Positions 46,652 to 50,366 of a stretch of 64,000 bases of DNA are shown piece after piece (the stretch's first letter is position 1; each line of letters starts with the position of its first letter). The stretch comes from Acidimicrobiales bacterium (GTDB taxonomy: Bacteria > Actinomycetota > Acidimicrobiia > Acidimicrobiales > CADCSY01), in assembly GCA_035540955.1 (NCBI GenBank), contig DATLFP010000058.1, positions 4,340 to 68,339 on the forward strand, in the 5' to 3' direction. The position numbers were made by a program, and so were the translations under genes. The notes beneath the pieces are model-generated. The model was not told where the DNA came from. It saw nothing but the letters and a program-made list of their open reading frames with translations, and ran no database searches.

Positions 46652-47983
46652 TCACCCCAGGAAGTCGCGGGCCAGCTCCTCCCACATCTCGGTCGACAGC
46701 CGCAACGACTCGACGTCGACCCGCTCGTCGTCACCGTGGAACATGAGCGCGTAGTCCTCGTACCGGATCGCGGGGCTGAAGAGCCCGAATCCGTACGACG
46801 GGATGCCGAGACGACGGAAGAAGCGGGCATCGGTGGCACCCACGGTCATGGCCGGCACCAGGGCGGCGCCGGGATAGAAGCCGTCGGCAACCCGGGCCAT
46901 GGCGTCCCACAGCGGCGTGTCCGCCGGCGAGGCCGTGCTGGGGTCGTGGTTGGCGCCCACGACCGAGACCCGGCCGGCGAGGTCGCCGAGCGCGTCGCTC
47001 AGCATCGCGTCGACCTCCTCGGCCGATTGACCCGGGAGGGTGCGGATGTCGACCTGGAGGTCGACCCGATCGGGGATCACGTTCGTCTTCGTCCCCGCGT
47101 GCATGACGGTGGGGGCGAAGGTGGTGTGCGTGCAGGCATGGGCGACGCGGGCCATGCCGAGCGGCAGGTCGTCGAGCACGCCCTCGATCTCCCCGGGATC
47201 GAGCAGCGCCGCCTCCCGCTCGGGATCGAGCTCCATGCCGCGGACGTATCGCGTCCAGGTGTCGTGGATCTCCGCCTGCGGCCGGTACGCCGACAGCCGG
47301 CGGACGACCTCGGCGGCGGTGACGAGAGCGTTGTCGGTGCGGAAGGGCTGCGACGCGTGGCCCGGCGTGCCGCCGATGCGCAGCGTGCACCAGTGGCTGC
47401 CCTTCTCGGCGGTGATCACCGGCAGCTTCACGCCCGACGAGCGCCGGGTGGGGTTGCCGCCCGACTCGGTGACCACGTAGCTCGCCCGCACGGCGTCGAG
47501 CTCGTGGTCGACGAGCCACTCCGCCCCCCACGCACCGAGGGCCTCCTCGTCGGCCACGGCGAGGTAGATGAGCGTGCCGCGCGGTCGGAAGCCGGAGGAC
47601 GCCAGCCGGCGCACGGCGACGGCCATGGACGCCGTGAGGTTGAGCATGTCGACCGCGCCCCGGCCCCACACGTAGCCATCGGCGAGCTCGGCCGCGAACG
47701 GATCGCGCGTCCACCCGTCGGCGTTCACGGGCACGACGTCGGTGTGCCCCATGAGGAGAAGCGACGGCGCGTCGCGGTCGTGACCCTCGATGCGGGCAAC
47801 CAGGTTGGCGCGGTCGGGGCGCGCCGCGAACGTCTGCAGGTCGAGGCCCGGCCCCTCGAGGAGCGCGCGCAGCACGTCGACCGAGCGCGCTTCGTGACCG
47901 CTGTCGTCGGTTCCGTCGTTCACGCATGCGTTCCGGATGAGGGACTGGAGGACCTCGACGACCTCACCGGGCATGTCGCGCAT
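46652..47983 (-). CDS. M20-family metallopeptidase (ArgE/DapE/CPG2-like)
   Basis: [26 protein letters not shown]. The start is ambiguous (TTG 48007, ATG 47983 or ATG 47974). Confidence 0.85.
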
Positions 47984-48045
47984 ACGAGAAATCGTACGGG
48001 GATGCAACTATTGCAACGCGTTCGATGCTTGACTGTTACGCGCTG

Positions 48046-49677
48046 ATGGCAACGAAGCATCTCGTGGTCGATGGATCGAACATCGCGACCGAAGGTCGGA
48101 CGATGCCTTCGCTCGCGCAGCTCGACGAAGCCGTGCGCGCGTTCATCGCCGAGCGGCCGATGGACAACTACACCGTGATCGTCGACGCCACGTTCGAGCA
48201 CCGCATCGACGCGTCGGAGCGGAAGCTCTACGACGACGCGCTTGCCGCCAACGAGCTCATCGTCACGCCGGCCGGGACCGTCGGTCGCGGCGACCGCTTC
48301 ATCCTCGAGGTTGCCGACCGCGCCGGTGCCATCGTGCTCTCGAACGACTCGTTCCAGGAGTTCCACGGCGACTACGGCTGGCTGTTCGACTCGGGACGCC
48401 TGATCGGCGGCCGGCCGGTCCCCGGCGTCGGCTGGGTGTTCGTCGAGCGCTCACCGGTGCGAGGACCCAAGAGCCGCCAGGCGACCCGCGACGCCAAGCG
48501 CAAGCGGGGGCCGGCCACCAAGGCGGCCGCCGCGCCCCGCGCGGCGCCCACGGCGCCCTCGAAGTCGTCGGGGCGCCCCCGAGGGGCGAAGAAGGCGGTG
48601 GGCGACGCCGCACCTGCGAAGCGGGCGAAGGCGGCCGGGCCGGGCAAGGCGGCCGGCAAGCCGGCCGGCAAGCCGCCGGCGGCGAAGGCGCCGCCGCGCG
48701 AGGGCGATGGCCGGCGCCGGACCGGTCGTCCTCAGCAGCCGCTCAACGACCAGCTGCCCTTCATCGAGTTCATCGCCGAGCACCTGCCGGGCAGCACGGT
48801 CGAGGGCGAGGTCGTGGAGTTCAGCAGCCACGGCGCCTATGTCCAGATCGGCGACGTCCGCTGCTACGTCCCGCTGAAGAACATGGGCGACCCGCCGCCC
48901 CGCAGCGCGCGCGACGTGCTCGAGCGGGGCCAGGTCCGCACGTTCGTCGTCCACTCCATCGAAGCGGCCCGGCGCGGGATCGACCTCGCGCTGCCCGGCT
49001 TCGAACGCATCGCGGCATCGCCGACCGAACCGGTCGCGACGCCACCTCGGCCCCGCCGCTCGCGCGCGGCAGCGGCCGACACGACCCTGCCGGTTGCCGC
49101 GTCGAACGACGCCGCTCCGGCAGTGGACAGGGCCCCGGCTGCGGCCGGGGCGAACCAGCCCGAAAGCGAGGCCACACTGGCAGCAACCAAGAAGGCAGCG
49201 GGTCGAAAGACCGCGGCCAAGAAGAGCACGGCTCGCAAGAGCACGGCGAAGAAGGCCACGGCCCGGAAGTCGACCGCTCGCAAGGCAACTGCCAAGCGCG
49301 CGCCGGCGAAGAAGGCCACGGCTCGGAAGCGCACCGCCAAGAAGGCGACGGCCAAGAAGTCGACCGCCAAGAAGGCGACTGCCCGGAAGAGCACGGCCAA
49401 GAAGAGCGCAGCCAAGAAGAGCACGGCTCGCAAGAGCACGGCCAAGAAGGCTGCGAAGAAGAGCACGGCCAAGAAGAGCACCGCGAAGAAGGCGGGTGCC
49501 CGGAAGAGCTCGGCCAAGAAGGCCGGCGCTCGCAAGCGCCCGGCCAAGAAGAGCACAGCCAAGAAGAGCACGGCTCGCAAGAGCACGGCTCGCAAGCGCC
49601 CGGCCAAGAAGAGCACGGCTCGCAAGAGCACGGCCCGGAAGGCCGGCGCCCGGAAGAGCACGGCGCGCAAGCGCTGA
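48046..49677 (+). CDS. NYN (Zc3h12a/regnase-like) ribonuclease domain - S1-like domain - histone-H1-like Lys/Ala/Thr/Ser repeat tail protein
   Basis: N-terminal [11 protein letters not shown]...[25 protein letters not shown] (cf. regnase VVIDGSNVA...DDRFIV...GIVVSNDTY). Middle segment [27 protein letters not shown] (S1 fold). The last ~160 aa are about 30 repeats of (K/R)K(S/A)TA. Confidence 0.8.
49186..49674 (+). repeat. coding tandem repeat (15-nt / 5-codon periodicity) encoding the basic tail
   Basis: Units such as AAGAAGAGCACGGC(T/C)CGCAAGAGCACGGCC recur many times with small variations. They are in frame and lie inside the 48046-49677 CDS. Confidence 0.85.
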
Positions 49678-49693
49678 GCCCTGCGTCTCCGTT

Positions 49694-49737
49694 CTGGGAC
49701 TGGTTCGCCCGGGCACGCCCGGTCGGGCCAGTCCCAG
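49694..49737. terminator. hairpin between convergent genes
   Basis: CTGGGACTGG (49694-49703) pairs with CCAGTCCCAG (49728-49737), with further imperfect pairing inside (TTCGCCCGGG / CCCGGTCGGG). Confidence 0.45.
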
Positions 49738-49755
49738 CTCGCGTCTCGAGCGTGC

Positions 49756-50349
49756 TCAGCTTCGCTCGAGGAGCCGGGTGGCGACGCGGTGCATCGTGTC
49801 GCGGTCCTGCACGCCGGGGATGACGAACCCCGACGGCATGAGGAACGCCGGCGTGCCCGTGACCTCGTGATCCACGGCCTCGACCATCGACGCTCGGAGC
49901 GCGGCATGGGCCGAGCCGTCGTCGACCGCCGCCCGCACCGGCGCCGGATCACCCCCACAGGCGACGATCAGCTCGTCGACCACGTCCGGATCCTCGATGT
50001 CGCGCCCCTCGGCGAAGTGGGCGGCGAAGAGCGCTCGGTGCAGGCCCGGGAACACCGGAGGCTGGGTCAGGCGGACGTGCTCGGCGGCCTCGAGCACCTT
50101 GCGGGTGTTGGGTGATCGTCGGGGTCGCACGAACGGGAGTCCGACCTCCTCGCACTCGCGGCCGACGTGGTCGAACACCGCCGCCGTCCGCCCGCCGGCC
50201 CGGAGCTCGCGACCGCCGGTCGGGATGTCGGGGTGCAGCTCGTAGGGACGGATGACGACCTCGATGCCGAGGTCGTCCAGCTGCTGCTCGCGGTCGAGCC
50301 CCAGATAGCACCAGGGGCAGAGGTAGTCGGACCAGACGGTGACCAGCAC
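49756..50349 (-). CDS. DsbA/FrnE-family thiol-disulfide oxidoreductase
   Basis: 197 aa. VWSDYLCPWCYLG (CPWC active site) and C-terminal GTPAFLM. Confidence 0.85.
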   Translation of the reverse strand: MLVTVWSDYLCPWCYLGLDREQQLDDLGIEVVIRPYELHPDIPTGGRELRAGGRTAAVFDHVGRECEEVGLPFVRPRRSPNTRKVLEAAEHVRLTQPPVFPGLHRALFAAHFAEGRDIEDPDVVDELIVACGGDPAPVRAAVDDGSAHAALRASMVEAVDHEVTGTPAFLMPSGFVIPGVQDRDTMHRVATRLLERS

Positions 50350-50366
50350 GCGGGTCCATCGTTAGC

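What the first reader, a model, noticed from the sequence alone, without database searches (positions are those of the whole stretch)
48046..49677. Three-module protein: regnase-like NYN RNase + S1 domain + about 30 histone-H1-like KKSTA repeats
The N-terminal ~150 aa align by eye with the Zc3h12a/regnase NYN nuclease core (VVDGSNIA ... [25 protein letters not shown]). A first Lys/Ala/Pro-rich linker follows. Next comes an S1/OB-like segment ([27 protein letters not shown]...VRTFVVHSI). The protein ends in a ~160-aa tail of (K/R)K(S/A)TA repeats, reminiscent of the basic tails of mycobacterial HupB/Hlp and eukaryotic H1. I am not aware of this domain combination having been characterised. It combines a predicted endoribonuclease with an RNA-binding fold and a nucleoid- or polyanion-binding tail. 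The gene is monocistronic, with a divergent promoter region upstream and a hairpin downstream.
Basis: partly seen in the sequence, partly recalled or inferred. Interest (0 to 1): 0.62.

Follow-up and report, generated by a model that had tools for sequence, protein, structure and literature searches.

The report
Acidimicrobiia NYN-S1 ribonuclease with polylysine tail
This is a real, conserved, single-copy gene of Acidimicrobiia bacteria that joins a Regnase/PRORP-type RNA-cutting domain to an S1 RNA-binding domain and a long, repeat-encoded lysine-rich tail. It is most likely an unstudied accessory ribonuclease, a bacterial branch of a mainly eukaryotic nuclease family, not a one-off fusion.

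Summary
ORF 48046..49677 (+) encodes 543 aa. All three proposed modules pass Pfam gathering cut-offs: RNase_Zc3h12a NYN, S1 and an HC2-like tail.

- **Folds.** The modelled NYN domain matches only Regnase (ZC3H12A/B/C), KHNYN and PRORP structures (TM 0.61-0.67). The S1 barrel is modelled at pLDDT about 95. Both linkers and the tail are disordered.
- **Active site.** Four of the five Regnase-1 acidic residues and the Asn are present (D9, N12, D83, D101, E105). They are invariant in every one of 267 relatives whose alignment covers the position. The Regnase D225 position is an invariant Gly (GRGD).
- **Tail.** It is 161 aa, carries +69 charge and no acidic residue, and consists of about 32 pentapeptide units encoded by a 15-bp tandem array. 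It varies in length between congeneric genomes.
- **Distribution.** The gene is single-copy here. It is found in 82/95 sampled genomes of the same order, 22/206 of other Acidimicrobiia and 0/370 other Actinomycetota. At least 579 species genomes carry it.
- **No displacement.** RNase E, RNase J and RNase P RNA are all present, so it adds to the standard set and replaces none of them.
- **Literature.** No paper characterises it.

Best reading: a Mg2+-dependent endoribonuclease that its S1 domain and polycationic regions bring to RNA. A DNA or R-loop role alongside the adjacent xthA is the main rival.

The parts
48046..49677 (+). Whole gene, 543 aa plus stop (alternative upstream ATG at 48025 gives 550 aa)
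   Evidence: ORF list and translation. Homologue N-termini support 48046.
48046..48489 (+). NYN (RNase_Zc3h12a-type PIN-like) nuclease domain, aa 1-148. Predicted active-site residues: D9 (48070-48072), N12 (48079-48081), D47 (48184-48186), G82-D83 (48289-48294), D101 (48346-48348), E105 (48358-48360).
   Evidence: Pfam PF11977, 39.9 bits. Family profile against PDB: KHNYN/ZC3H12A at E 4e-6. AF2 model pLDDT 74.7, pTM 0.74. Foldseek top 20 are all Regnase/KHNYN/PRORP, TM 0.61-0.67. Residues invariant in 264-267 of 267 relatives.
48490..48732 (+). Basic disordered linker 1, aa 149-229 (Ala/Pro/Lys/Arg/Gly-rich, pI 12)
   Evidence: Composition. pLDDT below 50. Linker length in relatives runs from 43 to 423 aa.
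48733..49005 (+). S1 (OB-fold) RNA-binding domain with a preceding helix, aa 230-320
   Evidence: Pfam PF00575, 33.3 bits. pLDDT 89-97. Foldseek hits to bS1 domains, RNase E S1, Tex and PNPase.
49006..49191 (+). Linker 2, aa 321-382 (Ala/Pro-rich), ending in the conserved PESEAT motif (aa 372-377)
   Evidence: Composition. The P[EQ]SEAT motif occurs in 56 of 267 relatives, including this protein.
49192..49674 (+). Polycationic repeat tail, aa 383-543: about 32 units of x-x-A-(K/R)-K ([10 protein letters not shown] and similar), 69 K+R, 0 D/E
   Evidence: Pfam HC2, 90.1 bits. TRF 15-bp period, 28.3 copies at 49214..49635. Composition. Disordered in the model.
49694..49737 (.). G+C-rich hairpin between the convergent stop codons (14-bp and 5-bp stems), probably a bidirectional terminator-like structure without a T tract
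   Evidence: RNA fold of 49672..49760: -56.5 kcal/mol, z -6.1. Unique in the genome.

Best explanation
The gene encodes a metal-dependent (Mg2+/Mn2+) endoribonuclease whose catalytic module is a Regnase/PRORP-type NYN domain.

Shown:
- The fold and the family assignment.
- An invariant acidic cluster D9/D83/D101/E105 plus N12, which matches Regnase-1 D141/D226/D244/D248 and N144.
- A confidently modelled S1 OB-fold.
- Two intrinsically disordered, strongly basic segments.
- A single copy in this genome.
- A lineage-wide distribution that is mostly syntenic.

Inferred:
- The isolated nuclease domain binds RNA weakly, as in Regnase (which uses a CCCH finger) and PRORP (which uses PPR repeats).
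- Here the S1 domain supplies single-stranded-RNA affinity.
- The +69 tail and the basic linker act as non-specific polyanion tethers. They would raise the local RNA, ribosome or nucleoid concentration and may promote condensation.
- The invariant D47 at the C-terminal edge of strand beta-2 may take over the role of the missing Regnase D225, which is an invariant Gly here.

RNase E, RNase J and RNase P RNA all co-exist with it. It is therefore an additional, lineage-specific RNA-processing or decay enzyme of Acidimicrobiales and replaces none of these.
For: - Domains pass curated cut-offs.
- A family profile hits the PDB chains KHNYN and ZC3H12A at E 4e-6, with the DGSN / (G)D-R/K-F / SND-x-x-x-E motifs in register.
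- Foldseek top 20 for the NYN model are only ZC3H12A/B/C, KHNYN and PRORP1/2.
- S1 model at pLDDT about 95 with S1-domain structural hits.
- D9, N12, D47, D83, D101 and E105 are invariant in 264-267 of 267 relatives.
- 237 of 267 relatives have the S1 domain. 189 of 212 tails of 40 aa or more are K/R-rich.
- Single copy in this genome.
- Present in 82/95 genomes of the same order, 22/206 of other orders of the class and 0/370 of the rest of the phylum. PF11977 finds nothing else in the phylum or in 14 control genomes.
- At least 579 species genomes carry it.
- A conserved syntenic block argues for vertical inheritance.
- RNase E 51/51, RNase P RNA 31/31 and RNase J 30/31 in the order.
- Regnase residue roles come from PMC5499597, PMC4772114 and PMC8306088.
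Against:
- The position of Regnase D225, described as one of four Asp residues crucial for Mg2+ binding (PMC8306088), is Gly in all members.
- The NYN model has only moderate confidence (pLDDT 74.7).
- In many relatives a genuine exodeoxyribonuclease III gene follows within -13 to +40 bp. H1-like tails classically bind DNA. A DNA-linked role is therefore not excluded.
- The substrate RNAs are unknown.
Confidence: 0.65

Rival explanations
1. It is a nucleoid-associated nuclease that acts on DNA or RNA:DNA hybrids (flaps, R-loops, ribonucleotides at lesions). It would work with exonuclease III. The H1-like tail would tether it to chromosomal DNA and the OB-fold would bind single strands.
For: - xthA (TIGR00633, 250 bits) lies directly downstream on the same strand in 11 of 20 sampled relatives. 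The gap is -13 to +40 bp in 7 of them, which suggests co-transcription.
- A UvrD2-like helicase is part of the same conserved block.
- The PIN-like superfamily includes FEN-type DNA nucleases (PMC5499597).
- In this genome, AKK tails also sit on topoisomerase I and on a DksA-type zinc-finger protein.
Against: - All structural neighbours are RNA nucleases (Regnase, KHNYN, PRORP), not FEN/5'-nucleases.
- The xthA adjacency is part of a generally conserved block and is not universal. An ABC-F gene follows in family f2. A rhodanese and a CoA-transferase follow in other orders. Here an opposite-strand DsbA-like gene separates the two.
- AKK tails also occur on ABC ATPases and on a DUF3071 protein, so they are not DNA-specific markers.
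Confidence: 0.15
2. It is a catalytically dead NYN domain. The protein would act only as an RNA or DNA chaperone, or as a nucleoid or ribosome-binding scaffold, through its S1 domain and tail.
For: The Regnase D225 equivalent is Gly in all members. PIN-like domains are often degenerate: Matelska lists 0-5 active-site residues in RNase_Zc3h12a members. Small degenerate NYN paralogues exist in a few Acidimicrobiales.
Against: D9, N12, D83, D101, E105 and an extra D47 are invariant across 267 sequences whose NYN domains have diverged to about 60% identity and whose linkers and tails are not conserved. That pattern is typical of a maintained active site. The degenerate paralogues show what loss looks like: DGSN becomes DADT and SND becomes TDR.
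Confidence: 0.08
3. It is a toxin-antitoxin or anti-phage defence nuclease of the PIN-like kind.
For: Many prokaryotic PIN-like domains are VapC-type toxins (PMC5499597).
Against: - No PADLOC model matches.
- There is no adjacent small antitoxin gene.
- It is single-copy, near-universal in the order and syntenic next to kgd.
- It is not in a variable island.
Confidence: 0.02
4. It is a non-orthologous replacement of a core RNase: a protein-only RNase P, or a substitute for RNase E, J or R.
For: PRORP is among the best structural matches. The layout of nuclease + S1 + basic tail recalls RNase E and RNase R.
Against: RNase P RNA is present in 31/31, RNase E/G in 51/51 and RNase J in 30/31 genomes of the order, including this genome. 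RNB-domain enzymes are patchy (13/31) but not complementary to NYN-S1 presence.
Confidence: 0.02

Closest known systems
Regnase-1/MCPIP1 (ZC3H12A), ZC3H12B/C/D, KHNYN, N4BP1 (Pfam PF11977 RNase_Zc3h12a, eukaryotic branch)
   Same: Same Pfam family and fold. The DGSN motif, the second Asp of the DD pair and the SND-x-x-x-(D/E) motif are in register. Same modular logic of a nuclease core plus an adjacent RNA-binding module.
   Different: This protein is bacterial. It has an S1 domain where Regnase has a CCCH zinc finger, and no NTD/CTD, KH or CUE-like parts. The D225 equivalent is Gly, and an extra invariant D47 is present. It carries a polycationic repeat tail. Identity to the solved structures is only about 20%.
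PRORP (protein-only RNase P, PF16953)
   Same: Same structural group of PIN-like nucleases, with TM 0.62-0.66. Same pattern of five acidic residues.
   Different: No PPR or zinc-binding domain. RNase P RNA is present in all sampled genomes of the order, so an RNase P role is not needed.
RNase R / RNase II and RNase E (nuclease + S1 + basic C-terminal region)
   Same: An S1 domain followed by a Lys/Arg-rich unstructured tail attached to an RNA-degrading catalytic domain. This comparison rests on established knowledge of these families, not on a test here. RNase E S1 is among the structural hits.
   Different: The catalytic folds are unrelated (RNB; DNase-I-like/RNase H-like). RNase E is present alongside this protein. 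RNB enzymes are absent from this genome but show no complementary pattern.
Rae1/YacP (PF05991) and LabA-type NYN (PF01936) bacterial NYN proteins
   Same: Bacterial PIN-like NYN nucleases. From the literature, Rae1 is a ribosome-dependent endoribonuclease.
   Different: No Pfam hit to PF05991 or PF01936 at E<=1. They belong to a different structural group in Matelska et al..
Hc2 (Chlamydia), HupB/Hlp C-terminal tail, Streptomyces DdbA, eukaryotic H1 tails
   Same: A Lys/Ala-rich short-period repeat composition (PF07382, 90 bits).
   Different: The resemblance is compositional only. NCBIfam Hc2 and Burkholderia H1-like models score far below their cut-offs. Here the tail is attached to an RNase and an S1 domain.

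Membership tests
RNase_Zc3h12a (PF11977), Regnase-type NYN nucleases | Profile score above the Pfam gathering threshold | tested here: met
   39.9 bits against a cut-off of 23, aa 4-107. The genome-level PF11977 search scores the locus at 42.8 bits.
RNase_Zc3h12a (PF11977), Regnase-type NYN nucleases | PIN-like alpha/beta fold of the PRORP/Zc3h12a group | tested here: met
   AF2 NYN model, pTM 0.74. The Foldseek top 20 are all ZC3H12A/B/C, KHNYN or PRORP, TM 0.61-0.67, E 6e-6 to 6e-4.
RNase_Zc3h12a (PF11977), Regnase-type NYN nucleases | Acidic active-site residues equivalent to Regnase-1 D141, D226, D244 and D248, plus N144 | tested here: met
   D9, D83, D101, E105 and N12 align in register. 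All are invariant in the family.
RNase_Zc3h12a (PF11977), Regnase-type NYN nucleases | First Asp of the DD pair (Regnase-1 D225) | tested here: not met
   Gly82 in 267 of 267 members, within the GRGD motif. Whether the invariant D47 compensates could not be measured because no model coordinates were available.
RNase_Zc3h12a (PF11977), Regnase-type NYN nucleases | Endoribonuclease activity dependent on Mg2+/Mn2+ | not testable with these tools
   Needs biochemistry.
ZC3H12/Regnase subfamily proper | CCCH zinc finger immediately C-terminal to the nuclease domain | tested here: not met
   The sequence after aa 107 has no Cys/His cluster. The only other Pfam hits are S1, HC2 and a below-cut-off Extensin_1 match; none is a zinc-finger family.
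S1 domain (PF00575) | Profile score above threshold and a five-stranded OB barrel | tested here: met
   33.3 bits against a cut-off of 22. pLDDT 89-97 with five strands. Foldseek hits bS1, RNase E S1, Tex and PNPase.
Histone H1-like Hc2 (PF07382 / NF038052) | Membership as an Hc2 or H1-like DNA-binding protein | tested here: inconclusive
   Pfam HC2 scores 90.1 against a cut-off of 40. NCBIfam Hc2 scores 54.9 against 135, and the Burkholderia H1-like model 42.6 against 80. The match is low-complexity and compositional. DNA binding was not tested.
PRORP (protein-only RNase P) | PPR RNA-binding domain and a zinc site, in genomes that lack RNase P RNA | tested here: not met
   No PPR hit. RNase P RNA is present in 31/31 genomes of the order, including this one.
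PIN-type toxin-antitoxin or defence nuclease | An adjacent antitoxin or defence partner, and a patchy, mobile distribution | tested here: not met
   The neighbours are an M20 peptidase and a DsbA-like gene on the opposite strand. No PADLOC hit. The gene is syntenic and near-universal in the order.

The most novel reading that the evidence does not exclude
The family may be a nucleoid- or ribosome-tethered RNA-surveillance endonuclease peculiar to Acidimicrobiia. In this reading the polycationic tail and basic linker concentrate the Regnase-type nuclease on nascent or ribosome-bound RNA, possibly as RNA-driven condensates. In the many genomes where xthA is translationally coupled to it, it would clear RNA (R-loops, stalled transcripts) at damaged DNA ahead of exonuclease III. 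That would be a bacterial coupling of RNA cleavage to base-excision repair, built on a nuclease fold so far studied only in eukaryotes.
Probability: 0.12. Interest if true: 0.75.

Novelty: new variant of a known kind. Interest (0 to 1): 0.5.

Why it matters
Regnase, KHNYN and PRORP-type NYN nucleases have been studied only in eukaryotes. The one comprehensive survey lists the bacterial branch as 'unknown function'.

Here that branch turns out to be a near-core, single-copy gene of a whole bacterial order, Acidimicrobiales. The order includes Microthrixaceae, Ilumatobacteraceae and Iamiaceae, which are abundant in soil, freshwater, marine systems and activated sludge. The domain solution is distinctive: S1 plus a polycationic IDR in place of a zinc finger or PPR repeats.

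Characterising it would:
- add a new member to the bacterial RNase repertoire;
- give a minimal, tractable model for how Regnase-type domains are targeted;
- test whether the D225 position is dispensable;
- provide a natural series of tail lengths for studying polycation-driven RNA binding or condensation.

It is not categorically new. Every module is a known kind, and databases already label the protein by its domains.

Tried and rejected
1. **Displacement of core RNases: rejected.** RNase E/G 51/51, RNase P RNA 31/31 and RNase J 30/31 in the order. RNB enzymes are patchy (13/31). Against known NYN-S1 status the counts are NYN+RNB+ 3, NYN+RNB- 8, NYN-RNB+ 1 and NYN-RNB- 4, so there is no complementarity.
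2. **Defence or TA system: rejected.** No PADLOC hit and no partner gene.
3. **Wider actinobacterial distribution: none found.** 0/370 by protein search and 0/370 by PF11977. None in the 14 control genomes.
4. **Gene neighbourhood as a functional clue: inconclusive.** There is a conserved Kgd-HAD-(M20)-NYNS1-Xth-UvrD2 block in the order. Other neighbours appear in family f2 (an ABC-F gene) and in other orders (acyl-CoA synthetase, rhodanese).
5. **Sigma-70 promoter scan: nothing found**. This is unsurprising at 71% G+C.
6. **Downstream hairpin as a repeat element: rejected.** It is unique in the genome.
7. **Second, weak NYN hits in a few Acidimicrobiales:** these are small degenerate paralogues and one sortase fusion, and they tell nothing about function.
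9. **Active-site geometry: not measurable.** Model coordinates are not exposed.
Full report
**The observation**

The window is 68-76% G+C throughout. An ORF runs on the + strand from ATG 48025, or from an in-frame ATG at 48046, to the stop at 49675-49677. Relatives almost all begin M-x-x-x-H-[LV]-V-[VI]-DGSN. Some gene callers take 48025 (550 aa; cluster P0002).

Pfam places three families above their gathering scores:

| Family | Residues | Bits | Cut-off |
|---|---|---|---|
| RNase_Zc3h12a (PF11977) | 4-107 | 39.9 | 23 |
| S1 (PF00575) | 248-315 | 33.3 | 22 |
| HC2 (PF07382) | best stretch 368-494 (two stretches) | 90.1 | 40 |

NCBIfam sees only S1-like and H1-like partial matches, all below cut-off.

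The segments differ sharply in composition:

| Segment | Residues | pI | Notes |
|---|---|---|---|
| NYN domain | 1-148 | 5.35 | |
| Linker 1 | 149-229 | 12 | Ala/Pro/Lys/Arg-rich |
| S1 domain | 230-320 | 5.06 | |
| Linker 2 | 321-382 | 8.74 | Ala/Pro-rich |
| Tail | 383-543 | 12 | 69 K+R, 0 D/E, about 32 x-x-A-(K/R)-K units |

The tail is encoded by a 15-bp tandem array with 28.3 copies at 49214..49635.

The gene sits between opposite-strand genes: an M20 peptidase at 46652..48007 and a DsbA-like gene at 49756..50349. A 14+5-bp G+C-rich hairpin at 49694..49737 follows the stop. The fold of 49672..49760 has -56.5 kcal/mol and z -6.1, and no shuffle folds as well. The hairpin is unique in the genome. 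No sigma-70-like promoter was detected.

All descriptive points of the finding are therefore confirmed, except that the promoter could not be verified.

**Structure**

The full-length AlphaFold model, built on a 45-sequence alignment, gives the S1 region pLDDT 89-97 and leaves both linkers and the tail below 50. Its Foldseek hits are S1 domains of ribosomal protein bS1, RNase E, Tex, PNPase and eIF2-alpha.

A separate model of aa 1-150 has pLDDT 74.7 and pTM 0.74. Its 20 best PDB matches are exclusively ZC3H12A/B/C, KHNYN and PRORP1/2 (E 6e-6 to 6e-4, TM 0.61-0.67). The next hits drop to TM below 0.4. This places the domain in the PRORP/Zc3h12a group of PIN-like nucleases defined by Matelska et al. 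2017 (PMC5499597).

**Active site**

Matelska et al. list Regnase-1 site A as D141, D225, D226, D244 and D248. Other papers name D141, D225, D226 and D244 as crucial for Mg2+ binding, and they use D226N/D244N as the dead mutant.

The phmmer and profile alignments to PDB chains put the motifs in register:

- DGSN aligns with DGSN, so D9 corresponds to D141 and N12 to N144.
- G-D-R/K-F aligns with D-D-R-F, so G82 corresponds to D225 and D83 to D226.
- S-N-D-S-F-Q-E aligns with S-N-D-T-Y-R-D, so D101 corresponds to D244 and E105 to D248.

Across 267 family members, D9 and N12 are invariant in the 264 sequences that cover the N-terminus. D83, D101, E105 and G82 are invariant in all 267. An additional D47, immediately after strand beta-2, is invariant too.

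The site therefore keeps four of the five acidic residues and the Asn. One classic Asp is consistently replaced by Gly.

**Family and distribution**

- The gene is single-copy in its own 4.24-Mb, 94.5%-complete assembly.
- A word-indexed search found more than 5000 proteins at E<=1e-3. This is a lower bound, because only 8000 candidates were scored. The best 120 nearly all have the same precomputed domains. Where sources name them, they are called 'S1 RNA-binding domain-containing protein', 'NYN domain-containing protein', 'histone H1-like repetitive region-containing protein' or 'hypothetical', from Acidimicrobiales or Acidimicrobiia MAGs.
- An exhaustive phmmer of the NYN domain against 1.84 billion 50%-identity representatives gave 883 hits at E<=1e-3 and 289 at E<=1e-30.
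- In whole genomes, 82 of 95 of the same order have it, as do 22 of 206 of other orders of the class and 0 of 370 of the rest of the phylum.
- The Pfam model PF11977 finds exactly the same loci in the phylum sample, nothing else, and nothing in the 14 control genomes.
Their titles name Acidimicrobiales, Microthrixaceae, Iamiaceae, Ilumatobacteraceae, Acidimicrobiaceae and Rhabdothermincola.
- Of the 267 relatives, 237 carry the S1 domain, and the rest are mostly short fragments. 189 of 212 tails of 40 aa or more are K/R-rich. Linker length runs from 43 to 423 aa and tail length from 1 to 447 aa.
- Repeat units differ between lineages (KKAPA, KKTAA, KKVA, PAKA and others).
- Two congeneric genomes encode proteins that are 96% identical over 441 aligned residues. 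They differ by 126 aa, all inside the tail array. The tail is therefore a rapidly length-variable module under compositional selection, not sequence selection.

**Genomic context**

Within the order the gene lies in a conserved block: Kgd, HAD hydrolase, (M20 peptidase), NYN-S1, (DsbA-like), XthA..., UvrD2-like helicase.

XthA is a genuine exodeoxyribonuclease III (TIGR00633, 250 bits). It lies directly downstream on the same strand in 11 of 20 sampled loci. The gap is -13 to +40 bp in seven of them, which suggests co-transcription there.

In the window, and in one other locus, an opposite-strand DsbA-like gene separates the two genes. In family f2 an ABC-F ATPase follows instead. In other orders the neighbours are an acyl-CoA synthetase, a rhodanese and a CoA-transferase, identified by eye.

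Context therefore supports vertical inheritance. It offers a DNA-repair lead but does not fix a function.

**Tests of bolder ideas**

If this protein replaced a core RNase, that enzyme should be missing. It is not:

| Enzyme | Present in the order |
|---|---|
| RNase E/G | 51/51 |
| RNase P RNA | 31/31 |
| RNase J | 30/31 |
| RNB-domain exoribonuclease | 13/31 |

All except RNB are present in this genome too. RNB enzymes are absent here, but their pattern is not complementary to NYN-S1 presence. No PADLOC defence model matches.

**The tail in context**

In this genome only eight ORFs carry comparable AKK tracts. They include topoisomerase I (identified by eye), a DksA/TraR zinc-finger protein, a DUF3071 protein and two ABC-transporter ATPases. 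The tail is thus a lineage-typical polycationic appendage on diverse proteins and not a specific nucleoid marker.

By established knowledge, S1 followed by a Lys-rich tail is also the C-terminal layout of RNase R, and basic unstructured regions flank the RNase E core. Those are the nearest functional analogies.

**Literature**

I found no paper that combines NYN and S1 in bacteria. Matelska et al. state 'Unknown function in bacteria' for RNase_Zc3h12a.

Earlier notes of this scan flagged the same family in other genomes and reached similar conclusions. I treated them as leads and re-derived the points independently.

**Verdict**

The observation and the domain interpretation are correct. The protein belongs to a conserved, uncharacterised, Acidimicrobiia-restricted family.

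- Most likely (about 0.65): a metal-dependent endoribonuclease brought to RNA by its S1 domain and polycationic disordered regions, acting as an accessory RNase.
- Main rival (about 0.15): a DNA, hybrid or nucleoid-linked role with ExoIII.
- Less likely: an inactive scaffold (about 0.08), a toxin or defence nuclease (about 0.02), or displacement of a core RNase (about 0.02).

It is a new variant of a known kind and of moderate interest.

Noticed in passing
window 49694-49737 (whole fold 49673-49760): A very stable G+C-rich hairpin (-56.5 kcal/mol, z -6.1) spans the gap between the convergent stop codons of the NYN-S1 gene and the DsbA-like gene. It has no T tract and is unique in the genome. 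It may be a bidirectional terminator of the factor-independent, T-less type seen in high-G+C actinobacteria.
   Followed up: partly
relatives P0003, P0005, P0007 and others; L003, L006, L007 (linker 1): A short proline motif, P[MLIV]PxPxxPPP (for example SKEASAPMPVPKAPPP), is conserved inside the otherwise variable linker 1 in 102 of 267 relatives. It is absent from the window's protein. It may be a docking motif for a partner protein.
   Followed up: partly
L023, L024, L025, L028, L032, L037, L039 compared with window 49678-50366: In many relatives xthA (exodeoxyribonuclease III) starts -13 to +40 bp after the NYN-S1 stop, which looks like an operon. In the window an opposite-strand DsbA-like gene (49756..50349) is inserted between them, and xthA (50367..) starts 18 bp from the DsbA-like start.
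   Followed up: partly
own genome G000: C252:19234-21930, C143:18146-18826, C185:13134-14648, C190:13295-14368, C254:1657-2787, C143:22440-23162, C26:2-265: Seven further ORFs in the genome, eight with the target, carry AKK-type polycationic tracts. They include topoisomerase I (by eye), a DksA/TraR zinc-finger protein with an N-terminal AKK array (similar to Streptomyces DdbA), a DUF3071 protein, two ABC-transporter ATPases, a membrane protein and a contig-end fragment. Tails on ABC ATPases are odd.
   Followed up: partly
L011 (G032) compared with L012 (G105): Two genomes of one genus encode NYN-S1 proteins that are 96% identical. They differ by 126 aa, all within the tail repeat array. This is direct evidence that the tail is length-polymorphic.
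   Followed up: yes
L021:9529-11205; L029:5164-6918: In family f2 of the order, an ABC-F ATPase (two ABC_tran domains plus ABC_tran_Xtn, EttA-like) lies directly downstream on the same strand, where other families have xthA.
   Followed up: partly
L053-L056 (G474, G531, G621, G516): A few Acidimicrobiales have a second, distant NYN-like ORF (about 150-540 aa, 27-33% identity). Its active-site motifs are degenerate (DGSN becomes DADT and SND becomes TDR). One appears fused to a membrane or sortase-like C-terminal region, judged by eye.
   Followed up: partly
L064, L104, L120 (genome contigs records): Three MAG records titled 'Bifidobacterium breve' or 'Bifidobacterium sp.' carry this gene at 67-70% identity. 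The gene is otherwise restricted to Acidimicrobiia, so the record labels are probably wrong.
   Followed up: no
own genome G000: No RNB-domain (RNase II/R) exoribonuclease was found in this 94.5%-complete assembly. Only 13 of 31 genomes of the order have one.
   Followed up: partly
genus g3 (G032 and G105 compared with G199, G277 and G618): Within one genus, the two contiguous assemblies have the gene and three fragmented ones (50-150 contigs) lack it. The repetitive tail may break assemblies, so the 86% prevalence in the order is probably an underestimate.
   Followed up: no
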